From a virus, in the IMG/VR virus record IMGVR_UViG_3300045988_107224: 40,431 bases of DNA; one strand, written 5' to 3'. This document shows, in pieces, positions 2,518 to 40,431 of this stretch. Below the pieces are notes generated by a model. That model was not told the origin of the DNA, did not search any database, and saw only the letters and a list, made by a program, of their open reading frames with translations. The first letter of the stretch is position 1. Each line of letters opens with the position of its first letter. The position numbers were made by a program, and so were the translations under genes.

Positions 2518-3134
2518 GCAGATTTATAATGTACGCTGTCTGTTGCGTACTTACATTCGCAACGATGCTTTTTGCCAAGGAGCAAGAGCACAAGAGGCAT
2601 ATACAAGAGCTAGAGCGCAACCAGCAAGTATTGCTCGGGGAACTAACGCTTTTTAAAGCCGCAGACAGCCTCAACGCGGTTGAGATGGGCGTACTATCAC
2701 TCACACTAAGAGAGTACGAGAAAACGCACGAAAATGACCTTAAAACGATTAAGGATTTACGGATTAAAGCTAACGGCTTAGCGTCCGTAAATAAAATGCA
2801 GTTGCAAACTATTACCCGGATAGGAGGGCGCGTGGTTGATACAGTCTACCTGCACTTAGATACGCTTACCAATACCACAACGGCAGATACAGCGCGGTGC
2901 GTAAAAAGCCGCTCGAAGTGGCTCGATTTCGATTTGTGCGTGTACAACAGCGGAGCGTATAGCGGTTCTGTGACTTCGCGCGATAGTATTATCATAGCCG
3001 AAGAGGTTAAATACAAGCGTTTTCTCGGCTTTCTTTGGCGAACAAATGCTGTAAAAGAACGTAACGTAAAAGTGACGTCAAAAAACCCTAATACAAAAAT
3101 AATAGGCTTTGAATTTGTTCGAATAAAAAAATAG
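2514..3134 (+). CDS. N-terminally membrane-anchored coiled-coil protein (possible spanin-like lysis accessory; function uncertain)
   Basis: Hydrophobic N-terminus (FIMYAVCCVLTFATMLF) followed by a heptad-like charged segment. It lies downstream of the lysis genes. Confidence 0.55.
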   Translation: MSRFIMYAVCCVLTFATMLFAKEQEHKRHIQELERNQQVLLGELTLFKAADSLNAVEMGVLSLTLREYEKTHENDLKTIKDLRIKANGLASVNKMQLQTITRIGGRVVDTVYLHLDTLTNTTTADTARCVKSRSKWLDFDLCVYNSGAYSGSVTSRDSIIIAEEVKYKRFLGFLWRTNAVKERNVKVTSKNPNTKIIGFEFVRIKK

Positions 3135-3150
3135 CGTTACTTTTGCAGCG

Positions 3151-3303
3151 ATGTTTAACCCCATAACGGCATCGGGTGATAAGAATTGGGAATAGATTTT
3201 CGTGAGTGGGCATTAAGTTGCTCACTCTCTTTTGTTAGCACATCCTTTCATATTACTTTTATAATACACAGCAGAGCCGCCACTCAGAGGAGTGGCTTTT
3301 TTT
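3151..3303 (+). ncRNA. mini-cassette 4: candidate ~150 nt small RNA
   Basis: TTTG at 3114-3117 and TACTTTTG at 3138-3145. An internal hairpin lies at 3204-3227. The terminator GCCACTC-AGAG-GAGTGGC (3279-3296) is followed by T7. Confidence 0.4.
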
Positions 3304-3545: not shown

Positions 3546-3700
3546 TCTAAAACGTGGATTTATTTCCAGCAAACGGAGGAAATTTCTACAAAACTCGGAT
3601 TTTTTTGCAAAAAAACTCTGAAAAAATTTCCGACAAATAATATATATAATAATAGATAATATATATAATATATAAAGAGTACGCGAAAAAGATTTTTCGC
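3546..3700 (+). repeat. origin-like module, copy A (intergenic): 3 iteron-like sites, a 43 bp AT block and a palindrome
   Basis: Iteron-like sites lie at 3549-3567, 3571-3589 and 3616-3634. ACAAATAATATATATAA lies at 3633-3649, the AT block at 3635-3677, and GCGAAAAA-GA-TTTTTCGC at 3683-3700. Confidence 0.6.
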
Positions 3701-3741
3701 TACATACCCTATAAAATAAATGAAAAGTTTTTGCACAAATA

Positions 3742-3773
3742 TTTGGTGCATTAAAATAAAAGTACTATCTTTG
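3742..3773 (+). promoter_or_regulatory. Bacteroides-type promoter for 3815..4321
   Basis: TTTG, 20 nt spacer, TATCTTTG. The imperfect palindrome TGCACAAATATTTGGTGCA (3732-3750) overlaps the -33 element. Confidence 0.6.
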
Positions 3774-3814
3774 CACTATCAATAATAACAAATAACAATC
3801 TAACAACAACAATC

Positions 3815-4321
3815 ATGAATAAGAAAGAATTTAACAAAATCGTAAAGGCAACAGGTAAGAACGTAGAAGTTGTAAAAGCTCTCAACGGCGAAACATACTT
3901 TCTGTACGTAGATGGTGAGCTTGCATTCTCGGATACGGCTTGCGAAGAAATCTACAATTACGAAACGGCACTTTGCTTTTATGCAGACTTATTGCTTGAT
4001 AAGTATGTGCACGAAGAAAAAAAGATATACAATGTTGACCGATGGGAGCTTAAGCCGATAGTTAAGGTTAACGGTATTAAGAAAGCCGTTAGCGAACTAA
4101 AGGGCTACAAGTACGGCAAAGCGTTCTTAAATCTTGACAACGGCAAAATTGAAGTTGTTGAAACCGCCTCTTACTCAGACTACGCGACAATAAACGGTGG
4201 TAATTGCCTATTAGTACTTACGCATTCAAAATACCTTAACCCTGCAACGATGCAACGCTTTCACGAAGCATTAGAAGATTTGGCAGAAGATTACGCGTAT
4301 GACGTTATTATCAAGTTCTAA
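3815..4321 (+). CDS. hypothetical early protein
   Basis: ATG 42 nt downstream of a canonical promoter (TTTG 3742-3745, TATCTTTG 3766-3773) with an A-rich leader. Confidence 0.75.
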   Translation: MNKKEFNKIVKATGKNVEVVKALNGETYFLYVDGELAFSDTACEEIYNYETALCFYADLLLDKYVHEEKKIYNVDRWELKPIVKVNGIKKAVSELKGYKYGKAFLNLDNGKIEVVETASYSDYATINGGNCLLVLTHSKYLNPATMQRFHEALEDLAEDYAYDVIIKF

Positions 4322-4396
4322 AGAGGTGTGCAGCCCGATGTAAAAGTCGGGCGCACAAAAAAAATACACATTCGACAAAAAAAAGTATTACAAAAA

Positions 4397-4428
4397 TTTG
4401 GAAGATAAAAAAATAAGTAGTATCTTTG
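4397..4428 (+). promoter_or_regulatory. Bacteroides-type promoter for the 4465.. operon
   Basis: TTTG, 20 nt spacer, TATCTTTG. Confidence 0.6.
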
Positions 4429-4464
4429 CATCGTAATTAAGAAACAAGTTAAAACAAAAACAAC

Positions 4465-5484: not shown

Positions 5485-6450
5485 ATGGAAGCAAAGAACG
5501 AAGTATTTAAGCAAGCAGAGGGCGCGTTTGAAATTGCGCAAGGCATCACAGCCGAGGAAATGAGAGCGTTATTTTTTGACAAAGACGCGCTACGGGAGCC
5601 ATCTTACAGAGTATTCCAGCTTAATAGCAAGGATAAGCGGTATTATTATACGATTGAGAACGGAAAGCCAACCTTTTACCCGTCTGTTACAACTATCATT
5701 CGTAACACTGTCCCAACTTCGCCTTTCTTGGAAAAGTGGAAAGCGGATTTAGGTTCGGAGAAAGCAGCGGCATACATGGAAGAGCGCGCAGCATACGGAA
5801 CATTTATGCACGCGCAATTTGAACGGCTACTTATCGAGAAAACGTATGACTTAGACAAGTTAAAAGGTTATCTACGTGACTACATGGAGGACAACAAATT
5901 GCCCGATAGTTTTATCCACTATGCTGACGAATTAAAAAAAGATATATTATCATTTGCTCAATTTGTGATAGATTACAAGGTGCAGCCTATTGCGATAGAG
6001 GTTGCTCTTGTACACCCGACAGGCTACGCAGGTATGATTGATTTGCCTTGCACGATGTTGAAGAAGATAGGCGGAGAAGAAAGAGTTGCAACAATCATAG
6101 ATTTTAAAAGCGGTCGCAAGGGATTTTACGAAGACCACGAAATCCAGCTCGGGCTGTACCGAGAAATGTGGAATGTTAATTTTCAAGACTTGCAAATCGA
6201 GCGCATCGCGAATTTTTCGCCGAAGGAGTGGCGCAAGAAGCCAACGTACAATTTTAAAGACCAAACAAAGGCAAAGTCGTTGGCGAAAATCCCTTACATA
6301 CTTGCGCTCAGCCGATTAGACGAGGGCGAGAAAGACGAATTTACAGCCGTTTCGGGAATCGTAACTTTGAACGATGAAACGGATTTTGAAAACAACATCA
6401 CGCGCATCACGTTGAGTGACCTTGTAACGAGCAAGACAAAGCAAAAATAA
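5485..6450 (+). CDS. PD-(D/E)XK (RecB/Cas4-like) nuclease
   Basis: GMIDLP ... IIDFKSG ... HEIQLGLY matches the D / (D/E)xK / QxxxY motif order. Confidence 0.7.
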   Translation: MEAKNEVFKQAEGAFEIAQGITAEEMRALFFDKDALREPSYRVFQLNSKDKRYYYTIENGKPTFYPSVTTIIRNTVPTSPFLEKWKADLGSEKAAAYMEERAAYGTFMHAQFERLLIEKTYDLDKLKGYLRDYMEDNKLPDSFIHYADELKKDILSFAQFVIDYKVQPIAIEVALVHPTGYAGMIDLPCTMLKKIGGEERVATIIDFKSGRKGFYEDHEIQLGLYREMWNVNFQDLQIERIANFSPKEWRKKPTYNFKDQTKAKSLAKIPYILALSRLDEGEKDEFTAVSGIVTLNDETDFENNITRITLSDLVTSKTKQK

Positions 6451-6671: not shown

Positions 6672-7514
6672 ATGGAAGAAATCAAAATCTTTGAAAATGC
6701 TCAGTTTGGGCAAATCCGTACAGCAGTAACCGAAAAAGGCGAACCTTTATTTTGCCTTTCGGATTTGTGCAAGATTTTAGGATTGGGGAACCCAAGCCAA
6801 GCAAAAAAGACCTTACGCAAAGAGGGGGTCATTACTAATGAGGTAGGGGTGACTACAGGTACTAAGGCAAATGGAGAACCCGCTGAACAGGTCATTTCAA
6901 TGAATTTTATCACAGAACCAAATCTTTACAAGTGCATTTTCCAAAGCCGAAAGGAGGTTGCAGAACAGTTCCAAGACTGGGTTTGCGGTGAAGTCTTGCC
7001 GAGCATTCGCAAATCGGGTGGCTACATGGTTGCTAAGGCTGACGAAACGCCCGAACAGCTGATGGCGCGAGCGTTAGAAGTTGCTCACGAAACACTTGCA
7101 AAACGTGATGCAGCCTTACAGCAAGCCGAAACAAAGAATTTTGAATTGCAGTGTGAAAATGAACAGCTAAAGCCTGGAGCAACGTTTGCCAAAGCAGTTG
7201 AAACGTCTAAGCACTCTATATTGGTTGGAGAGCTTGCAAAGATTATCCGACAAAATGGAGTGGAGATTGGGCAAAATAGGCTTTTCGAAGTACTCCGCGA
7301 AAAGGGCTACTTATGCAAAAAGGGCGAAATGTACAACCAGCCCACGCAAAAAGCGCTTGATTTGAAGCTTTTTGAAATTAAGAAGACCGTCATTCAGAAG
7401 CCGAGCGGTGAAACGATTGTTACTACTACAACTAAGGTGACAGGCAAAGGACAGATTTACTTTGTAAACAAGTTTCTCCGCGAACAGCGGAAAAGCCAAA
7501 ATAAGCGCATTTAA
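6672..7514 (+). CDS. Bro-N / KilAC (ANT) antirepressor-family protein
   Basis: The N-terminus IFENAQFGQIRT..GEPLFCLSDLCKILGL is a Bro-N signature. The C-terminus LVGELAKIIRQNGVEIGQNRLFEVLREKGYL is KilAC-like. Confidence 0.85.
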   Translation: MEEIKIFENAQFGQIRTAVTEKGEPLFCLSDLCKILGLGNPSQAKKTLRKEGVITNEVGVTTGTKANGEPAEQVISMNFITEPNLYKCIFQSRKEVAEQFQDWVCGEVLPSIRKSGGYMVAKADETPEQLMARALEVAHETLAKRDAALQQAETKNFELQCENEQLKPGATFAKAVETSKHSILVGELAKIIRQNGVEIGQNRLFEVLREKGYLCKKGEMYNQPTQKALDLKLFEIKKTVIQKPSGETIVTTTTKVTGKGQIYFVNKFLREQRKSQNKRI

Positions 7515-7599: not shown

Positions 7600-8316
7600 A
7601 TGAAAGGAAGAATCAAAAGAACACAAGAAGTTAGCCGTGTCGTTTTACCTGTTATTGGGAAAATTAAGGTTGGCATCAAGGAAAAAAGTAGAAACGGAAC
7701 AGAATATCCGAAAAGCGTGGATTACTTTGTAGCAAGTGGAAAGTATGCAGCATTATTCAACGAAGCCTACGGAGATAAGCCTCAAACAATTCAAATCGTT
7801 TTTCCCGACGATAGTCCCGAAAATGTATGCAGTGAGCGTTACGAGTACCGCGATGACAAAGGAGCGTTAATTGCTAGCGGTGATGGCGAAACTTTTAACG
7901 TATGGGACGGCACAAAGTACGTAACGTTGCTTGCCTCTGATTATCCTAACTTGATGCAATCCATACAGCAGCGTTACCCGAGGAGGCACGGCAGACAAGA
8001 TGGCGATAATTGGGACATCGTACTAACAATTACTTTTATCATCCCTTTTGTTCGCGGAGTTGGTGGAGTATGGCAGTTTACCACAAAGGGCGCGGCATCA
8101 ACAATCCCAAACATAAGAGATACATTTGACGCAATGCTGGAACAGCGAGGAAAGGTCCGAGGAGTTATATTTGATTTAAGCGTGCAGTTCGCAAAATCTC
8201 AAAAGCCCGGCACAAACAGCCGTTATCCAGTTGTAACTATTGTTCCTAACGAGAGAGAGGAGAATTTAAAAAAGATTAAAGAAGCGTTTCAGCCTATCAA
8301 ATTAGAAAATAAATAG
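7600..8316 (+). CDS. hypothetical protein (from memory, weak resemblance to the phiC31 gp3-like family found in phage replication modules)
   Basis: Long ORF with good coding character. The pattern IGKIKVG..(N)..P.S.DYF....(N)..YGDKP..I.I.FP is only a recollection, not a search result. Confidence 0.7.
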   Translation: MKGRIKRTQEVSRVVLPVIGKIKVGIKEKSRNGTEYPKSVDYFVASGKYAALFNEAYGDKPQTIQIVFPDDSPENVCSERYEYRDDKGALIASGDGETFNVWDGTKYVTLLASDYPNLMQSIQQRYPRRHGRQDGDNWDIVLTITFIIPFVRGVGGVWQFTTKGAASTIPNIRDTFDAMLEQRGKVRGVIFDLSVQFAKSQKPGTNSRYPVVTIVPNEREENLKKIKEAFQPIKLENK

Positions 8317-8329
8317 TACATTTGCATAC

Positions 8330-8416
8330 GTGATTTGTAAGAAAATAGTTTCATCCATATATCTGAATTCTTAACCTATGCCGCATTGTCGTGATGATAA
8401 CGCGGCATATTTTTTT
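8330..8416 (+). ncRNA. mini-cassette 5 (family A copy 1): candidate ~85 nt small RNA
   Basis: TACATTTG at 8317-8324. An extended hairpin at 8378-8408 has loop GTGAT and is followed by T7 at 8410-8416. Confidence 0.4.
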
Positions 8417-8449
8417 GTTATTACGCGGTATATTATTATATTTGCACAA

Positions 8450-8537
8450 TTCATCAATGGATATTCGATTTTTAAGTTTTGCTTTTTTTGAATTACACTA
8501 ACTGAGCCGCATTGTCGTGATGATAACGCGGTTTTTT
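8450..8537 (+). ncRNA. mini-cassette 6 (family A copy 2): candidate ~85 nt small RNA
   Basis: TTTG at 8414-8417 and TATATTTG at 8437-8444. The hairpin at 8507-8531 is identical over 25 nt to 8381-8405 and is followed by T6. Confidence 0.4.
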
Positions 8538-8583
8538 GATAAGCGTAATTTATATTCCGTAATGCCTACGGAGATTTGGTTAT

Positions 8584-8633
8584 TTCATGGTTGATTGTTA
8601 GCCGCCTTTTCAGTGATGATAGGGCGGTTTTTT
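8584..8633 (+). ncRNA. mini-cassette 7 (family A, diverged copy): candidate small RNA with an unclear promoter
   Basis: The hairpin at 8602-8627 (CCGCC...GTGATGAT...GGCGG) is followed by T6. The only upstream box is the weak GAGATTTG at 8571-8578. Confidence 0.25.
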
Positions 8634-8679
8634 GTATTAAAATTTGAATTGAAAAGGAAATATTACTATCTTCGCAGCG

Positions 8680-8745
8680 TGTAACAAAGAAGTAGTGTTT
8701 TTGTTTTAGCTTGGCGCACAGCCCAAAGGACTGCGCGTTTTTTTT
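8680..8745 (+). ncRNA. mini-cassette 8: candidate ~65 nt small RNA
   Basis: TTTG at 8643-8646 and TATCTTCG at 8667-8674. An imperfect GC hairpin at 8714-8736 is followed by T8. Confidence 0.3.
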
Positions 8746-8791
8746 GTTTGTTGTTGGCTGAAATTAAAAAATAATACGTATCTTTGCAATC

Positions 8792-8849
8792 GATTTATGC
8801 TTAATGTAGTAGCGTTGTCCCATGAGAGTGGGGCAGCGCATTTTTTTTT
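8792..8849 (+). ncRNA. mini-cassette 9: candidate ~60 nt small RNA
   Basis: TATCTTTG at 8779-8786. An 11 bp hairpin (8812-8822 pairs with 8829-8839) is followed by T9 at 8841-8849. Confidence 0.35.
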
Positions 8850-8869
8850 GAAAAAATATTCGCAAATCC

Positions 8870-8900
8870 TTTGTTATATTATGAAAAATTACTACTTTTG
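8870..8900 (+). promoter_or_regulatory. Bacteroides-type promoter for the replication genes (8931..)
   Basis: TTTG, 19 nt spacer, TACTTTTG. Confidence 0.55.
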
Positions 8901-8930
8901 CAGTATCACAAAAAAATAAAACAACAGCCT

Positions 8931-9215
8931 ATGGAAAAAGGATTTATATTGCGCATTGACTTCGTAGAGAAGTTTGGTTTTTCAGGTACGACATTAGTAT
9001 TGGTGTCGTTGCTCGTAGATGCATTGCAGAAAGGCGACGGTTGGCTTACGATGCAACAGGATGAAATAGCTAAAATGCTTGGCATTTCATCAGCCCGTGT
9101 AAATCAAATCTTTCGAATATTGAAAAGAGGAGGGTTTCTCCTGCAAAAGAAAGCAACAGGAAGAAAATATAGAAATAGAAAAGAATACAAGTTTAACGAA
9201 GAAAAATTAAAGTAA
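8931..9215 (+). CDS. winged-helix / HTH DNA-binding protein
   Basis: DEIAKMLGISSARVNQIFRILKRGGFL. The ATG at 8931 is preferred because a promoter (8870-8873 / 8893-8900) lies inside the TTG-extended ORF 8871. Confidence 0.6.
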   Translation: MEKGFILRIDFVEKFGFSGTTLVLVSLLVDALQKGDGWLTMQQDEIAKMLGISSARVNQIFRILKRGGFLLQKKATGRKYRNRKEYKFNEEKLK

Positions 9216-9216
9216 T

Positions 9217-10092
9217 ATGAAGTACTATATTAACATAAATCAGAAATTCTCCGTAGAACACGGCTTAAATACGTCTGAATCGATTGTTTTTGCATGGCTG
9301 TACGAGTTGCCGTCATGGGCAGAAAGCATCTTAATAGGCAATAAAACATACTATTTCGGCAGCCGCAACAAGGCGGCGGCAGAGTTGCCACTTATAAGCG
9401 ACAAGCCGAATACGTTTCAGAAACTTTACAAGAAGTTAGAGGCAAAAGGGCTTATTGAGATTATCAAGATTGGCAAGGCTGAATACATAGCAATAACAGA
9501 CCTCGGAAAGGGGTGGTATTTATCCAGCGGAGAGCCAAAAAAGGAAGCACCAAAAAGCGAGAAAAAAATCCAAAACGAGGAAAATTTTCCACAAACGGCA
9601 GAAAAATCCTCAGAAATCGGGAAAAATTTCTCAAAAAACGAGGAAAATTTTCCTACAAATAATATATATAAGAATAATATAAATAATAATATAATATATA
9701 GAAGTCGCGAAAAAGAATTTTCGCAACACTCTCAACAAAATGGAGAGGTTGTGGAGTCTGAAATTATTGAGACTAAAGAGCTGAAAGGCGAGGGCGCAAA
9801 AAGGTTGTTTCGAAGTTTTTTTGCTGAAATAGATAAAGGCACTTATGACGAGCTTAACGCTCTGTTTAATGCCGAAGAGTATGCCGATATAAACTTAGTG
9901 TATTATTACCATGCTGTTGCAGACTGGAGCGACAGCGCAAACAAAAAGAGGACAAAGCGAGGATGGATTGCCACGATTAGAAACTTTATAAAATCAGACA
10001 AGGAAAAGGGTAAACTGCACACTATAAGTGCGGAACTATTTAAAGAGCAAATCAAAGTCAAACCAGAAGACTACTTAACATTAGACCTATGA
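9217..10092 (+). CDS. putative replication initiator / replisome organiser (N-terminal winged helix) carrying an internal iteron plus AT-rich module
   Basis: N-terminal wHTH-like domain. The low-complexity linker NEENFP..NEENFPTNNIYKNNINNNIIY is encoded by iterons and an AT block (9568-9724), a lambda O-like arrangement. Confidence 0.55.
   Translation: MKYYININQKFSVEHGLNTSESIVFAWLYELPSWAESILIGNKTYYFGSRNKAAAELPLISDKPNTFQKLYKKLEAKGLIEIIKIGKAEYIAITDLGKGWYLSSGEPKKEAPKSEKKIQNEENFPQTAEKSSEIGKNFSKNEENFPTNNIYKNNINNNIIYRSREKEFSQHSQQNGEVVESEIIETKELKGEGAKRLFRSFFAEIDKGTYDELNALFNAEEYADINLVYYYHAVADWSDSANKKRTKRGWIATIRNFIKSDKEKGKLHTISAELFKEQIKVKPEDYLTLDL
9568..9724 (+). repeat. origin-like module, copy B (inside CDS 9217..10092)
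   Basis: AAAACGAGGAAAATTTTCC occurs at 9572-9590 and 9635-9653 (63 bp apart), with a degenerate site at 9619-9632. ACAAATAATATATATAA lies at 9655-9671, followed by an AT block and GCGAAAAAGAATTTTCGC at 9707-9724. Confidence 0.6.
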
Positions 10093-11000
10093 GCTACGAT
10101 ATAATGACAAAAGGAAATACTGCTGTATCAGTTGTAACAACGCAAAAAGCCGTAGACGTGCGTAGAAATATGGTGCAGCGTAAAGAAATATTAGGCGCTC
10201 TTTGTGTAGCTGATAGGAGGATTTTAGCAGCGTCGGCAAAAAAGCTAATTAGCGAAATGAATGACGAAGAGCTGATAAATGCTATTGCAAGTGTATTTAG
10301 ACTTGTTGCTGCTGATGTTGGCTATAAGATTACAGACAAGGAACTATGGCAGCAGACGTTGTCTCGAATATACACGATGCTTAAAGCGTATTACCAGCAG
10401 CTAAGCATGACGGATATAAGTCTTGCTTTTGAGTTGTTCGTCGTCGGGAAGCTTGATAAATACCTTCCACAGCGTAATGGAGAGGTAGACAAAAACCACT
10501 ATCAACAATTTAGCCCGATGTATGTTAATACTGTCCTCAATGCTTACGTACAACGGCAGCGTGACGCATTGGCTAATGCTTACGAGGTCAAAGTGGATGA
10601 GCTACAGGAGCCAACCGAGGAGCGAGAAAAGAAAGGGCGAAACTACATTCGGGCAAAATTTATCAATGCTTTTTTGTATTACAAGTACCACGGCAAAATA
10701 ATATTCGATGGCGCAGACGATATGTTTTATTACAGCCTTGCACGCAAGTTGGGCTACGCAGATAAAGTCGTTGAGACTGATGCGGACAAACAAAAGGCTT
10801 TCGGCATATACATGAGCCGTTATTACAGGGGGCTTGTAAATAGGTTCGATGCATATAACGTACGCAAGGAGGGCGCAAAAAGTGACAGGATAGCCCACTT
10901 GGCTACAATAGAGGCGCGGAAAGCAGAAGTAAAACGAGCGTTCGCGCGTATGGTTGGAAACGGAGTAATAATAACAAATATAGTACGCTATGAATTTTAA
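10089..11000 (+). CDS. hypothetical protein (replication module)
   Basis: ATGA overlap with the upstream gene. 303 aa ORF with no recognised motif. Confidence 0.75.
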   Translation: MSYDIMTKGNTAVSVVTTQKAVDVRRNMVQRKEILGALCVADRRILAASAKKLISEMNDEELINAIASVFRLVAADVGYKITDKELWQQTLSRIYTMLKAYYQQLSMTDISLAFELFVVGKLDKYLPQRNGEVDKNHYQQFSPMYVNTVLNAYVQRQRDALANAYEVKVDELQEPTEEREKKGRNYIRAKFINAFLYYKYHGKIIFDGADDMFYYSLARKLGYADKVVETDADKQKAFGIYMSRYYRGLVNRFDAYNVRKEGAKSDRIAHLATIEARKAEVKRAFARMVGNGVIITNIVRYEF

Positions 11001-11589
11001 AAAAATTGGATGTATAAAGACCTATGTTGGCATAGACCCGGGAGCCAATGGAGGAATTGCTATAAATAGGGGCGGGGAAATTTTTTTACATAAAATGCCG
11101 AAAACCACGTTAGAGTTTGCGGACCTCTTGAAAGCCTTGCACGTTGGCAGTACTTTGGTGGTTATTGAAAAGGTAGGAGTGCGCCCCGATGATGTAGCCG
11201 TGGCAGATGGCGCGGTTAATTTCGGCAAGCTGTACCGCGTGCAGAAAATGGTGGCGAACTTTGAAGCGCTGAAAACCGCGTTAGACCTTTCTGGGCTTGC
11301 ATACGTCACAGCACACCCGATGAAATGGCAGAGTTTTTTAAGCGTGAGGATAAAGGGCATGGAAAAGGCAACACGCAAAAGACACTTTAAGGAGATAGCG
11401 CAAAGTTTGTATCCACAAACAAAGCAAACATTGTGGTCGGCTGATGCAACGCTAATAATGCACTTCGGCATGATGGCAGCCGAACGCAATTTGCAGTATT
11501 TTCGCTCAAAAATGCCTAAGGAGAAGTTCGGAATGCTATTTAGAGCCGATTTAAGCGCGTTTGAGGGCGTTTCTCGCGCTAAATGGTAA
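10990..11589 (+). CDS. RuvC-like Holliday junction resolvase
   Basis: YVGIDPGANGGIAI ... VVIEKV ... SADATLIM matches the acidic catalytic motif order of the RuvC/RNase H fold. Confidence 0.72.
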   Translation: MNFKKIGCIKTYVGIDPGANGGIAINRGGEIFLHKMPKTTLEFADLLKALHVGSTLVVIEKVGVRPDDVAVADGAVNFGKLYRVQKMVANFEALKTALDLSGLAYVTAHPMKWQSFLSVRIKGMEKATRKRHFKEIAQSLYPQTKQTLWSADATLIMHFGMMAAERNLQYFRSKMPKEKFGMLFRADLSAFEGVSRAKW

Positions 11590-11821
11590 ACTATAAAGGT
11601 AAGTGCAAAATAAGCCGTTAGAGCCAAAATAACGAAGGAAGAAGAATATCTTTGTTTATTATGGTCCGAAGGCTTGTTTTGTATATAGACAAACTTTCGC
11701 GGTCGTTGCGTACTGAGCTAAGATTGGGAATAAAATAAAGTTGTGTTTGCAAGGTGGGAGATTACAAAACGCGATGAAAGCGAAAATAATTACAGAAAAA
11801 CAACAAAAAAGCACACAAAAA

Positions 11822-11853
11822 TTTGATTGGAACAAAATAAAGTACTACCTTTG
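11822..11853 (+). promoter_or_regulatory. Bacteroides-type promoter for 11903.., near-identical to the 3742-3773 promoter
   Basis: TTTG, 20 nt spacer, TACCTTTG. The flanks AAAATAAAGTACTAYCTTTGCACTATCAA are shared with 3753-3781. Confidence 0.6.
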
Positions 11854-11902
11854 CACTATCAAAAATAAAACAAAACAACAAAACAAACAAAAACCTACAA
11901 TT

Positions 11903-16738: not shown

Positions 16739-17128
16739 ATGAGCGTAAATAAAGTAATTTTGCTGGGGCACCTTTGCGGAGACCCTAAAATTAAAACATT
16801 CAGCGATGGCAGTAAGGCGGCACGTTTTTCACTTGCGACAAACGAGCGTTACAAAGATGGCAACGAGTACAAGGAGCACGCGGAGTTTCATAATATCGTG
16901 ATGCGTGGGAGAAACGCGGAGATTGCCGAACAATACCTTAAAAAGGGCGATAGAATTTATTTAGACGGCAAGCTAAGATTCGTCAAATGGGAAAAAGACG
17001 GACAGCAACGGCAGCAGGTAGACATCGTGGTCAACACTTTTGTAATGTTAACCCCGAAGCAACAGCAAAGCAAAAAGCAAGAAGAAGATGCACAGCCGAT
17101 TGAGCCAACAGATAATTTACCCTTTTAG
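16739..17128 (+). CDS. ssb: single-stranded DNA-binding protein
   Basis: The OB-fold N-terminus NKVILLGHLCGDPKIK...RFSLATNE...HNIVMRG plus a Q-rich linker and the acidic tip DNLPF. Confidence 0.9.
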   Translation: MSVNKVILLGHLCGDPKIKTFSDGSKAARFSLATNERYKDGNEYKEHAEFHNIVMRGRNAEIAEQYLKKGDRIYLDGKLRFVKWEKDGQQRQQVDIVVNTFVMLTPKQQQSKKQEEDAQPIEPTDNLPF

Positions 17129-18880: not shown

Positions 18881-19714
18881 ATGGAAGTAATTTACAGAAA
18901 GTTGTCAGACATCAAGCCTTTGGACAATAACCCAAGGAAGATTACAAAAGAACAGTTGGAAACGTTGAAAAAATCAATCAGCGAAAATCCCGAATACTTC
19001 GAGGCTCGCCCAATTATCCTATCGGATAGAACAGGGGAACTCGTGATAATTGCAGGAAATCAGCGTTACAGGGCTTGTAAGGAGTTAAAATTTAAAGAAG
19101 TTCCCACTATTTTGCTGAGCGGATTAACGGAAGCTAAAGAACGAGAAATAATTATCCGAGATAACGTAAACAATGGCGAGTGGGACGATGAGCTTTTGGG
19201 TGATTGGAATGCCGACGAGCTGGAAGAATGGGGTGTTGAAATTCATGATACGTCAGAAGATGATGCTTGTGGGGGGCGGTTGAAAGAGACGGAAAGACTC
19301 AGCGAATTAATCTTTGATACACCGTATTACCAACCAGAAGAAATTCCGAATATAAAACTATCAGAGTGTGTAGACCTTGAAAAGTTCAAAGCCAAAATAA
19401 AAGTGATTGAAGATTCACCGCTAACAAATGAACAAAAAGAAACATTGAAACTATTTGCATACAGATTTATACGGATAGATTTCGAAAATGTGGCAAATTA
19501 CTATGCGTTTAACGCCAGTGAAGAGGAGCAAAAAATTATGCAGAGGTTGAGGCTCGTGTTAGTAGATGGCGGTGTGTTAATGAGTGAACGCATGGCAGCA
19601 GAACGCATGGCAGCAGAACGCATGGCAGCAGAACGTTACGAACTAAGCGAGCGAGAAAAGGAAATTGTAAAAATATTAGGAGAACAAAGCGAACATGGTA
19701 AAATATTGCGATGA
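18881..19714 (+). CDS. ParB-like nuclease (ParB/Srx) domain protein with an (ERMAA)x3 repeat
   Basis: LSDIKPLDNNPRKI ... IIAGNQRYRACKEL are the ParB N-terminal domain motifs. It is the first gene after the promoter 18759-18790. Confidence 0.85.
   Translation: MEVIYRKLSDIKPLDNNPRKITKEQLETLKKSISENPEYFEARPIILSDRTGELVIIAGNQRYRACKELKFKEVPTILLSGLTEAKEREIIIRDNVNNGEWDDELLGDWNADELEEWGVEIHDTSEDDACGGRLKETERLSELIFDTPYYQPEEIPNIKLSECVDLEKFKAKIKVIEDSPLTNEQKETLKLFAYRFIRIDFENVANYYAFNASEEEQKIMQRLRLVLVDGGVLMSERMAAERMAAERMAAERYELSEREKEIVKILGEQSEHGKILR
19586..19635 (+). repeat. 15 bp tandem repeat (GAACGCATGGCAGCA) x3.3 in the ParB-like gene
   Basis: Perfect units at 19586-19600, 19601-19615 and 19616-19630, then a partial unit. 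Confidence 0.95.
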
Positions 19715-39989: not shown

Positions 39990-40431
39990 ATTCAACATAG
40001 AACAGATACGCATTATTGCGGTAACTATGATTACAACGGTATTAGGTTACATATCCCCAACAAATGGGTATGTGATTAGCCTAATTATAATGTTTGCGCT
40101 AAACATATTCGCAGGCATGAGGGCGGACGGAGTTTCGATTGTTAAATGCAAAAACTTTTCGTTTCGAAAATTCAAAAATTCGCTCGTTGAGTTTCTTTTG
40201 TACTTGCTAATCATCGAAACAATTTTCGCCGTCATGCACTCGTGCGGAGATGGTGCCGCAGCACTAATAGCCGTAAAGTCGGTAACGTATGTGTTTGTGT
40301 ACGTGTACGCTCAGAACGCGCTAAAAAACCTTATCTACGCTTACCCCGATATAATTGCCTTGCGCATATTGTATCATGCTGTAAGATTTGAGTTTAAGCG
40401 AGCTTTGCCCTCACATATCAAGCCGATAGTC
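39982..40431 (+). CDS. holin-like multi-pass membrane protein, 5' part (continues at 2..109; 167 aa in total)
   Basis: The ATG at 39982 overlaps the fibre stop (AATGGATAA). The frame is open to the window end. It has about 4 hydrophobic segments and sits immediately upstream of the endolysin on the circular map. Confidence 0.6.
   Translation, partial: MDKFNIEQIRIIAVTMITTVLGYISPTNGYVISLIIMFALNIFAGMRADGVSIVKCKNFSFRKFKNSLVEFLLYLLIIETIFAVMHSCGDGAAALIAVKSVTYVFVYVYAQNALKNLIYAYPDIIALRILYHAVRFEFKRALPSHIKPIV
40377..40431. repeat. terminal direct repeat, right copy (identical to 1-55)
   Basis: 55/55 identity. The length is typical of a k-mer overlap in a circular assembly. Confidence 0.95.

What the first reader, a model, noticed from the sequence alone, without database searches (positions are those of the whole stretch)
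9568..9724. Iteron / AT-rich / palindrome module inside the putative initiator gene, duplicated 6 kb upstream in non-coding DNA
Inside CDS 9217..10092, the 19-mer AAAACGAGGAAAATTTTCC occurs twice exactly 63 bp apart (9572-9590 and 9635-9653). Its core GGAAAATTTTCC is a perfect palindrome, and a degenerate copy lies between the two (9619-9632). A ~45 bp almost pure A/T block follows, then the inverted repeat GCGAAAAAGAATTTTCGC (9707-9724).

The block is translated as a low-complexity linker (NEENFP...NEENFPTNNIYKNNINNNIIY) between an N-terminal winged-helix domain and the C-terminal domain. This is the architecture of lambda ori inside gene O.

A collinear ~155 bp paralogue lies at 3546-3700 in a gene-free region. 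It shares the identical 17-mer ACAAATAATATATATAA (3633-3649 versus 9655-9671), its own AT block, and GCGAAAAAGATTTTTCGC at 3683-3700.

Two origin-like modules on one small phage could mean two origins. Alternatively one copy could titrate the initiator, as P1 incA does by handcuffing.
Basis: partly seen in the sequence, partly recalled or inferred. Interest (0 to 1): 0.66.

Follow-up and report, generated by a model that had tools for sequence, protein, structure and literature searches.

The report
Two replication-origin modules in gut phage
A 40-kb gut phage carries a lambda-style replication origin inside its own initiator gene plus a conserved second copy in non-coding DNA 6 kb away. This layout was previously worked out only for Bacillus phage SPP1, so it is a sound but not unprecedented find.

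Summary

**Module B (9572-9724)** lies in the disordered linker of a 291-aa winged-helix initiator (9217..10092). It has:
- four about 21-bp dyad iterons (core GGA-W6-TCC);
- a 49-bp AT block;
- the palindrome GCGAAAA-AGAA-TTTTCGC.

**Module A (3549-3700)** is a collinear non-coding copy. It sits 42 bp upstream of the first early promoter.

**Main evidence**
- A/B similarity is far beyond chance (z = 21).
- The two AT blocks are the two least stable stretches of the genome.
- Both modules are present in every relative that covers both sites.
- Nucleotide-level constraint is seen in both. Third-codon diversity collapses in B. The AT block of A has pi 0.02, against 0.27 at neighbouring synonymous sites.
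- Distant homologues of the initiator (Flavobacterium phage FCL-2, Parabacteroides phage, IMG/VR contigs) all carry iterons plus an AT block inside the gene, and most also a palindrome. None shows a second copy.

**Reading**
- B is the ancestral in-gene origin, of the lambda O, SPP1 gene 38 and pSK41 RepA type.
- A is a retained duplicate, analogous to SPP1 oriR. It could be a second origin, a fork barrier, or both.
- Binding and firing are untested.
- This is a new member of a known kind, of moderate interest.

The parts
9217..10092 (+). Initiator gene (291 aa). It has an N-terminal winged-helix domain (residues 1-101), a disordered linker (103-196) and a helical C-terminal domain (197-291).
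   Evidence: - ORF listed.
- AlphaFold model: N-terminal domain pLDDT about 88, linker about 33.
- Matches phrog_11527.
- tblastn hits are annotated as replication proteins in F116-like phages.
- Foldseek top hits are the RepA_N initiator N-terminal domains 4pql and 4pt7.
- In locus L014 the homologue is followed by a Toprim plus DnaB_C primase-helicase.
9572..9653 (+). Module B iteron array: four units of about 21 bp, starting near 9572, 9593, 9614 and 9635. The consensus is AAAAC-NN-GGA-W6-TYC, with dyad core GGAAAATTTTCC.
   Evidence: Sequence. Tandem Repeats Finder gives period 21, 3.8 copies. Codon positions 1, 2 and 3 are equally variable here, so there is no coding periodicity.
9655..9703 (+). 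Module B AT block, the candidate DNA unwinding element. It begins with the invariant ACAAATAATATATATAA.
   Evidence: It holds the least stable 46-bp stretch of the genome: dG -38.1, against a genome mean of -60.5 +/- 4.5. It is near-invariant in all A and B copies. Third-position diversity is depressed to 0.11-0.20.
9707..9724 (.). Module B palindrome GCGAAAA-AGAA-TTTTCGC.
   Evidence: Third-codon diversity is 0.02 across 9697-9726. In 9 of 11 modules from different lineages the best inverted repeat lies 37-49 nt after the last iteron, with mostly unrelated sequences.
3549..3631 (+). Module A iteron array: four units, starting at 3549, 3571, 3590 and 3612. It includes the perfect dyad GGATTTATTTCC at 3556.
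   Evidence: Conserved in L003, L004, L005, L006, L008 and L009. Diversity pi is 0.185, against 0.267 at neighbouring synonymous sites.
3633..3681 (+). Module A AT block, the candidate DNA unwinding element. It carries the same 17-mer as module B.
   Evidence: It holds the second least stable 46-bp stretch of the genome, dG -38.4. Diversity pi is 0.020 among six relatives, the lowest of the whole intergenic region.
3683..3700 (.). Module A palindrome GCGAAAAA-GA-TTTTTCGC.
   Evidence: It is conserved in relatives.
3742..3773 (+). First early promoter of Bacteroidota type (-33 TTTG, -7 TATCTTTG). It lies 42 bp downstream of module A.
   Evidence: Pattern scan. It belongs to promoter repeat family D1 and is conserved in relatives.
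10089..11000 (+). A 303-aa all-helical protein of unknown family, translationally coupled to the initiator gene. It is a candidate partner or helicase loader, by position only.
   Evidence: Homologues follow the initiator gene in L166, L015 and PD482P1. The family has 383 representative clusters. No Pfam, PDB, NCBIfam or Foldseek identity was found.
8931..9215 (+). A 94-aa winged-helix protein upstream of the initiator gene. It is specific to this phage family and its role is unknown.
   Evidence: Weak hits to HTH_Crp_2, RepL and DnaD_N. It is present in all close relatives but absent from distant ones.
5485..6450 (+). PD-(D/E)XK exonuclease, part of the recombination kit relevant to an SPP1-type replication switch.
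   Evidence: PF12705 and phrog_298.
10990..11589 (+). Holliday junction resolvase.
   Evidence: phrog_1770.
16739..17128 (+). Single-strand DNA binding protein.
   Evidence: phrog_44. PF00436 is recorded in relatives.

Best explanation
**Module B: the ancestral origin**
- Module B is the phage's ancestral replication origin. It is embedded in the linker-coding part of its own initiator gene.
- Dimers of the initiator's N-terminal winged-helix domain bind the four dyad iterons.
- The resulting nucleoprotein complex opens the adjacent, sequence-conserved AT block.
- The C-terminal domain, probably with the co-transcribed 303-aa partner, recruits the host helicase and primase. The phage encodes none of its own.

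**Module A: a retained duplicate**
- Module A is an old duplicate of the complete origin cassette: iterons, unwinding block and palindrome.
- This phage family has retained it in the main intergenic region, just upstream of the first early promoter.
- It most likely works as a second initiator-loaded origin-type site, like oriR of phage SPP1.
- It would be able to open and fire. Alternatively, or additionally, it would hold bound initiator as a barrier that helps convert circle-to-circle replication into concatemer synthesis for headful packaging.

**Shown versus inferred**
- Shown: architecture, duplication, conservation, nucleotide-level selection and the family-wide in-gene layout.
- Inferred: who binds, strand opening, helicase recruitment, and what the second copy does.
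For: **The two modules are true paralogues**
- A and B are collinear, with z = 21 against shuffles.
- Tandem Repeats Finder gives period 21, 3.8 copies in B.
- The strict dyad occurs only in the two modules.
- Their AT blocks are the two least stable stretches of the 40-kb genome.

**Conservation and selection**
- B is present in all nine related loci. A is present in all six that span the site.
- Third-codon diversity falls from 0.2-0.46 in the protein domains to 0.02-0.2 over the AT block and palindrome of B. The iteron part shows no codon periodicity.
- The AT block of A has pi 0.020, against 0.267 at synonymous sites next door.

**The protein**
- The linker encoded by B is predicted to be disordered.
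- The N-terminal domain best matches the N-terminal domains of RepA_N plasmid initiators.

**The wider initiator family**
- Distant initiators all have 3-4 iterons plus an AT block inside the gene, and most have a palindrome at a fixed offset.
- A homologue with a different N-terminal domain has different iterons but the same layout.
- One homologue is followed by a primase-helicase.

**Precedents**
- SPP1 oriL lies in gene 38 and oriR is intergenic. Both are bound by gp38, and oriR is a proposed fork barrier (PMC6316719, PMC3485210).
- Lambda ori lies in gene O (PMC7466680, PMC6022878).
- The pSK41 ori lies in rep (PMC5703833).
- The window has an exonuclease, a Holliday junction resolvase, an SSB and an Sf6-type terminase.
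Against: - No binding, unwinding or initiation data exist.
- The window family's iterons are degenerate relative to the CTCGGAAAWAAATCCGA consensus of distant relatives. They score poorly with a matrix built from that consensus.
- A/B iteron co-variation is weak. The window combines a clade-1 initiator and module B with a module A typical of clade-2 genomes.
- Two complete genomes of distant relatives manage with one module, so a second copy is not generally required.
- The whole 680-bp intergenic region is conserved, not module A alone.
- Cumulative GC skew is monotonic and gives no origin signal.
- No single-strand annealing protein was identified.
- The 303-aa partner has no recognisable fold.
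Confidence: 0.6

Rival explanations
1. Module A never fires. It is only a tight initiator-binding roadblock. It stalls forks started at module B and triggers the recombination-dependent switch to concatemer (sigma) replication, as proposed for SPP1 oriR.
For: - The SPP1 model is described in PMC3485210 and PMC6316719.
- The window encodes an exonuclease, a Holliday junction resolvase and an SSB.
- It packages by headful, with an Sf6-type small terminase in relatives.
- The module lies in the intergenic region, as oriR does.
Against: - A pure barrier needs iterons only. Yet the AT block of module A is its most constrained part: pi 0.02, against 0.185 for the iterons.
- No annealing recombinase was found.
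- Distant relatives with similar recombination genes lack a second module.
Confidence: 0.25
2. Module A is a negative-control or pairing site. Initiator bound there titrates the protein or handcuffs module B, looping the 6-kb early region and limiting or timing initiation. This is the P1 incA, R6K or RepA_N tetramer type.
For: - The iterons of A and B are in direct orientation.
- The N-terminal domain resembles RepA_N domains, which form tetramers (PMC5703833).
- Handcuffing is common in iteron replicons (own knowledge; PMC5397158).
Against: - Control loci such as incA consist of iterons without an unwinding element (own knowledge). Module A keeps the AT block and palindrome under the strongest constraint.
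- A phage with no integrase, repressor or ParA detected has no evident need for copy-number control.
Confidence: 0.15
3. Module A is mainly a transcriptional element. It would be an operator or upstream element through which the initiator, or the 94-aa winged-helix protein, regulates the early promoter 42 bp downstream.
For: - The position is immediately upstream of the -33/-7 promoter at 3742-3773.
- The entire intergenic region is conserved.
- Lambda O contacts RNA polymerase, and transcription activates ori (PMC3017604).
Against: - An operator would not need collinearity with the complete 150-bp origin cassette.
- It would not need to be the genome's second weakest duplex.
- The other two copies of the same promoter family (4389, 11814) have no such module.
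Confidence: 0.1
4. There is no DNA-level function. The repeats in the gene are just a low-complexity peptide repeat, and module A is a decaying fragment of an old initiator gene.
For: - The linker translates as NEENFP...NEENFPTNNIY.
- A peptide motif of the SExNPT-NN type is seen family-wide.
Against: - Third-codon diversity collapses over the AT block and palindrome.
- Module A is non-coding, has frame-breaking indels, and yet has pi 0.02 in its AT block.
- A decaying fragment would not be retained in every relative.
- The linker is predicted disordered, and such linkers are dispensable in pSK41 Rep (PMC5703833).
Confidence: 0.04

Closest known systems
Bacillus phage SPP1 oriL (inside gene 38) plus oriR (intergenic), bound by initiator gp38
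   Same: - One origin copy lies inside the initiator gene. A second, similarly organised copy (direct repeats plus an AT-rich unwinding element) lies in a long intergenic region kilobases away on the same genome.
- The genome is transcribed from one strand.
- Packaging is by headful.
- The phage encodes an exonuclease, a Holliday junction resolvase and an SSB (PMC6316719, PMC3485210).
   Different: - The host phylum differs (Bacteroidota-type promoters here).
- No sequence family is shared with gp38 at Pfam level.
- SPP1 encodes its own helicase and loader. This phage has neither recognisable.
- The spacing is 6 kb rather than 12-13 kb.
- The SPP1 repeats are not described as dyad iterons followed by a palindrome.
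Bacteriophage lambda ori inside gene O (lambdoid phages)
   Same: - Four iterons with internal dyad symmetry, followed by a roughly 40-bp AT-rich block.
- The origin lies in the flexible linker between the DNA-binding N-terminal domain and the partner-binding C-terminal domain (PMC7466680, PMC6022878).
- A palindrome lies to the right of the AT block (own knowledge).
- Iteron type changes with the N-terminal domain while the rest of the cassette stays.
- A downstream co-transcribed partner gene is present.
   Different: - There is no detectable homology to O or P.
- Lambda has a single ori and no intergenic duplicate.
RepA_N plasmid initiators of Firmicutes (pSK41 Rep)
   Same: - Four Rep boxes lie centrally within rep.
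- The central part of the protein is a dispensable linker encoded by ori.
- The N-terminal domain is a winged helix. The C-terminal domain is host-specific and recruits a host factor (PMC5703833).
- These N-terminal domains are the best structural matches of the model.
   Different: - The structural match is weak (E 3.5e-3, TM 0.5), and Pfam RepA_N does not hit.
- This is a plasmid, not a phage.
- There is no second origin copy.
Phage P4 ori plus crr, and P1 oriR plus incA (distal iteron sites acting in cis)
   Same: A second cluster of initiator-binding repeats lies kilobases from the origin. It is required for replication (P4 crr) or controls it (P1 incA). This is from own knowledge and was not verified in the library.
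   Different: Those distal sites are repeat arrays without a copy of the unwinding block and palindrome. Module A is a copy of the whole cassette.

Membership tests
Lambda-type in-gene iteron origin | The origin lies inside the initiator gene, in the linker between the DNA-binding and partner-binding domains. | tested here: met
   Module B encodes residues 119-170, which fall within the disordered stretch 103-196.
Lambda-type in-gene iteron origin | Three or more tandem iterons with internal dyad symmetry, next to an AT-rich unwinding block of about 40 bp. | tested here: met
   There are four units with period 21. The dyad is GGA-W6-TCC. The AT block is the least stable site in the genome.
Lambda-type in-gene iteron origin | The initiator is homologous to lambda O (Pfam Phage_rep_O). 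| tested here: not met
   The Pfam scan at E <= 0.01 gives only a weak winged-helix hit.
Lambda-type in-gene iteron origin | The initiator binds the iterons and replication starts there. | not testable with these tools
   This needs EMSA or footprinting and replication mapping.
SPP1-type dual origin (oriL/oriR) | One copy lies inside the initiator gene and a second, similarly organised copy lies in intergenic DNA of the same genome. | tested here: met
   The arrangement is conserved in six loci (five distinct genomes).
SPP1-type dual origin (oriL/oriR) | The initiator binds both copies with high affinity. | not testable with these tools
   Only shared dyad motifs are shown.
SPP1-type dual origin (oriL/oriR) | The initiator is homologous to gp38 (replisome organiser family). 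| tested here: not met
   There is no Pfam replisome-organiser hit. Only the neighbouring 94-aa protein gives a weak DnaD_N hit.
SPP1-type dual origin (oriL/oriR) | A recombination kit for the theta-to-sigma switch (exonuclease, annealing protein, Holliday junction resolvase, SSB), with headful packaging. | tested here: inconclusive
   An exonuclease, a resolvase, an SSB and an Sf6-type terminase are present. No annealing protein was recognised.
RepA_N initiators (pSK41 type) | RepA_N N-terminal domain, by Pfam PF06970 or by fold. | tested here: inconclusive
   There is no Pfam hit. The Foldseek top hits are 4pql and 4pt7, but at E 3.5e-3 and TM 0.5.
RepA_N initiators (pSK41 type) | The origin boxes lie centrally within rep, encoding a dispensable linker. 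| tested here: met
   The layout is met. Dispensability was not tested.
Iteron control locus (P1 incA type) | An array of initiator-binding repeats without an unwinding element, on a replicon that needs copy control. | tested here: not met
   Module A keeps the AT block and palindrome under the strongest constraint. No partition, integrase or repressor genes were found.

The most novel reading that the evidence does not exclude
The intergenic copy is a family-specific innovation with a job of its own. It would act as a programmed initiator-bound fork barrier or pairing partner that times the switch from circle replication to concatemer synthesis. It could also couple replication to the early promoter beside it. 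This would be the second natural case after SPP1 and the first in Bacteroidota phages. Sister lineages carry only the in-gene origin, so they offer a natural with/without comparison for testing the long-proposed but unproven oriR barrier model.
Probability: 0.3. Interest if true: 0.62.

Novelty: new member of a known kind. Interest (0 to 1): 0.45.

Why it matters
- It gives a concrete, testable origin of replication and an initiator-iteron code for a large, unannotated initiator family. The family occurs in phages of Bacteroidota: gut Bacteroidales phages and Flavobacterium phage FCL-2, with more distant homologues of the N-terminal domain in F116-like Pseudomonas phages. No origin for these phages is described in the searched literature.
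- The iteron / AT block / palindrome cassette and its position in the linker could be used to annotate origins and initiators automatically in metagenomic phage genomes.
- The conserved two-module layout is an independent natural replicate of the SPP1 oriL/oriR arrangement.
- Close outgroups lack the second copy. This makes the proposed role of a second origin in the theta-to-sigma switch testable by comparison.

Tried and rejected
- **GC skew.** Cumulative skew is monotonic because all genes are on one strand. It gives no origin signal.
- **Rfam.** There are no hits in the window.
- **Exact-pattern scans for the palindrome.** There are no hits in IMG/VR. The 29 genome-contig hits appear to be chance: they are scattered across unrelated phyla, and the one Bacteroides hit (L162) was checked by blast and is unrelated. 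No host was found.
- **First search for related loci.** It returned one distant locus only.
- **Identity of the 303-aa partner.** All of these were negative: Pfam, PHROGs function, NCBIfam, a PDB profile, an AlphaFold model (pLDDT 58) with Foldseek, and Pfam scans of 42 diverse family members.
- **Position weight matrix.** A matrix built from distant relatives' iterons does not score the window's iterons above background.
- **A/B iteron co-variation across genomes.** It is weak and not decisive.
- **MT836526.1 seemed to lack module A.** This is a truncation artefact. Its end matches the extra 82-aa gene that lies between module A and the next promoter in relatives.
- **Palindrome as a terminator.** Rejected, because no T run follows on the coding strand.
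- **Module A as a pac or cos site.** Rejected, on own knowledge that headful phages of this type place pac in or near the small terminase gene; the Sf6-type terminase genes here lie near 19.7-21.9 kb.
- **P4 crr literature.** It could not be verified in the library.

Full report
**Context.** The window is a circular assembly: bases 1-55 repeat at 40377-40431. It is a phage genome of about 40.4 kb.
- Essentially all genes are on the + strand.
- Promoters are of the Bacteroidota type, TTTG...TAnnTTTG.
- The nearest public record is an unannotated human-faecal phage contig, MT836526.1, at 85-90% identity.
- Lysis genes end at 3134. A 680-bp intergenic region follows. Early genes start at 3815.

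The array inside ORF 9217..10092 is better described as four iterons with a 21-bp period:
- They start near 9572, 9593, 9614 and 9635. Tandem Repeats Finder gives period 21, 3.8 copies.
- The outer two are perfect, with dyad core GGAAAATTTTCC.
- A 49-bp AT block follows (9655-9703), then the palindrome GCGAAAA-AGAA-TTTTCGC (9707-9724).

The region 3549-3700 is collinear with it:
- It has four units, starting at 3549, 3571, 3590 and 3612.
- It has the identical 17-mer ACAAATAATATATATAA, an AT block, and GCGAAAAA-GA-TTTTTCGC.

The similarity is not a composition artefact:
- The local score is 65, against 14.3 +/- 2.4 in 2000 dinucleotide shuffles. No third copy exists.
- The strict motif GGA-W6-TCC occurs only at 3556, 9579 and 9642, with 0.2 expected.

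**The gene.** An AlphaFold model built on 28 homologues shows three parts:
- a confident winged-helix N-terminal domain (residues 1-101, pLDDT about 88);
- a disordered stretch (103-196, pLDDT about 33);
- a helical C-terminal domain.

Module B encodes residues 119-170, so it lies inside the linker.

Evidence on what the protein is:
- The best structural matches of the N-terminal domain are the N-terminal domains of staphylococcal RepA_N plasmid initiators (4pql, 4pt7). The match is weak (E 3.5e-3, TM 0.5). MarR-like regulators follow.
- There is no curated family hit.
- Distant tblastn hits are annotated as replication proteins in F116-like Pseudomonas phages.
- One homologue is directly followed by a Toprim plus DnaB_C primase-helicase.
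- The protein is modular. The N-terminal domain is shared with Flavobacterium phage FCL-2 and others. The C-terminal motif WSDSANKKRT..RGW is shared with Bacteroides and Parabacteroides phage proteins.

**Selection acts at the DNA level in both modules.**

Among nine initiator genes (75-94% protein identity):
- Third-codon diversity is 0.2-0.46 in the folded domains.
- It falls to 0.11, 0.20 and 0.02 over the AT block and palindrome.
- The iteron part shows equal diversity at all three codon positions.

Module A is non-coding: relatives differ there by indels and share no ORF. Among six loci:
- its AT block has pi 0.020;
- its iterons have pi 0.185;
- synonymous sites of the neighbouring gene have pi 0.267.

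The two AT blocks are by a wide margin the two least stable 46-bp stretches of the genome. Their dG values are -38.1 and -38.4. The next value is -45.8, and the genome mean is -60.5 +/- 4.5.

**Both modules are conserved.**
- Module B is present in all nine related loci.
- Module A is present in all six that reach the intergenic region: L003, L004, L005, L006, L008 and L009.
- The apparent absence from MT836526.1 is a truncation.
- The A copies cluster together and the B copies cluster together. The duplication therefore predates the radiation of this family.

**The in-gene origin is family-wide. The second copy is not.**

These distant homologues each carry 3-4 near-perfect dyad iterons (CTCGGAAAWAAATCCGA, period 21-22) followed by CAAATAATAATA..., all inside the linker-coding part of the gene:
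- FCL-2 gp54;
- Parabacteroides phage PD482P1;
- three Logan contigs;
- seven IMG/VR contigs.

A homologue with a different N-terminal domain but the same C-terminal domain (L166) has different iterons (GTACAAGAAACTTGTAC) in the same layout. This parallels the domain and iteron swaps of lambdoid phages.

In 9 of 11 modules the best inverted repeat lies 37-49 nt after the last iteron, with mostly unrelated sequences. The cassette of iterons, a roughly 45-bp AT block and a palindrome is therefore conserved as architecture.

None of these relatives shows a second cluster in the DNA held. That includes two complete genomes.

**Mechanism.**
- Shown: the anatomy, the duplication, the conservation and the constraint described above.
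- Inferred: the N-terminal domain binds the iterons, because the two always co-occur. The 94-aa neighbour does not always co-occur with them.
- Inferred: binding opens the AT block.
- Inferred: the C-terminal domain recruits host helicase and primase, possibly with the co-transcribed 303-aa protein. No helicase, primase or polymerase is encoded.
- The 303-aa protein follows the initiator in several lineages. It has no recognisable family or fold.

For module A, retention of the unwinding block and palindrome under the strongest constraint argues for a complete origin-type site rather than a bare binding array. Its position 42 bp upstream of the first early promoter would place it in the negatively supercoiled wake of transcription. 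That point rests on own knowledge. Compare lambda transcriptional activation of ori (PMC3017604).

**Comparison with known systems.**
- **SPP1 is the closest.** Its oriL lies within initiator gene 38 and oriR lies in a long intergenic region 12-13 kb away. Both have direct repeats plus an AT-rich unwinding element, and both are bound by gp38 at nanomolar affinity. oriR is proposed to stall forks and trigger the theta-to-sigma switch, with an exonuclease, a Holliday junction resolvase, a recombinase and an SSB (PMC6316719, PMC3485210). The window has an exonuclease, a resolvase, an SSB and a headful-type terminase. No recognised annealing protein was found.
- **Lambda.** It has four dyad iterons plus a 39-bp AT-rich block in the linker of gene O (PMC7466680, PMC6022878).
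- **pSK41 Rep.** It has four boxes centrally within rep, a dispensable linker and a host-specific C-terminal domain (PMC5703833).
- No sequence-level membership in the O, gp38 or RepA_N families could be shown.
- No paper on iterons in Bacteroides phages was found in the library.

**Verdict.**
- The feature is a new member of a known kind.
- It is valuable for annotation and as a second natural dual-origin system.
- It is not a new principle.

Noticed in passing
window 8317-8930: The intergenic region upstream of the initiator operon holds a row of short units, each a promoter followed by a hairpin terminator. The -7 boxes lie near 8317, 8437, 8665 and 8779. The GC hairpins with T runs are at 8380-8417, 8506-8538, 8601-8634, 8712-8746 and 8812-8850. 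Two of the hairpins share an identical 26-mer. This looks like a battery of small RNAs. There is no Rfam match.
   Followed up: partly
window 3114-3300: A near-invariant mini-unit sits just after the lysis genes. It has a Bacteroidota-type promoter (3114-3145), a 14-codon ORF (3149..3193, MFNPITASGDKNWE) and two intrinsic terminators (3204-3227 and 3279-3296). It is conserved in all six loci compared (window, L003, L004, L006, L008, L009), with pi 0.05.
   Followed up: partly
window 10089-11000: The 303-aa all-helical protein belongs to a family of 383 representative clusters with no annotation, no Pfam or PDB match and no structural neighbour. It repeatedly sits directly after initiator genes, even ones with different N-terminal domains. 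It is a candidate new helicase-loader-like partner.
   Followed up: partly
window 3549-3700 versus 9217-9724: The window is a mosaic. Its initiator and module B belong to clade 1 (with L003 and L004). Its module A is 87-93% identical in the iteron part to that of clade-2 genomes (L006, L008, L009). This implies recombination between the two sites.
   Followed up: partly
L009 9114-10846; L010 209-1357: Relatives carry IS200/IS605-type insertions in the early region. These comprise a Y1 transposase plus a TnpB/Cas12f-like gene.
   Followed up: no
window 7600-8316: A Gp3-like recombination directionality factor gene (E 4e-36) and an Ant antirepressor gene (6672..7514) are conserved. No integrase or repressor was detected in the genome.
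   Followed up: no
window 19586-19635: A perfect 15-bp tandem repeat in three copies (GAACGCATGGCAGCA) lies inside the ParB-like protein gene 18881..19714.
   Followed up: no
window 3734-3806, 4389-4461, 11814-11886: Three copies of a 73-nt extended early-promoter cassette are present, at 66-75% identity. Only the first has an origin module next to it.
   Followed up: no
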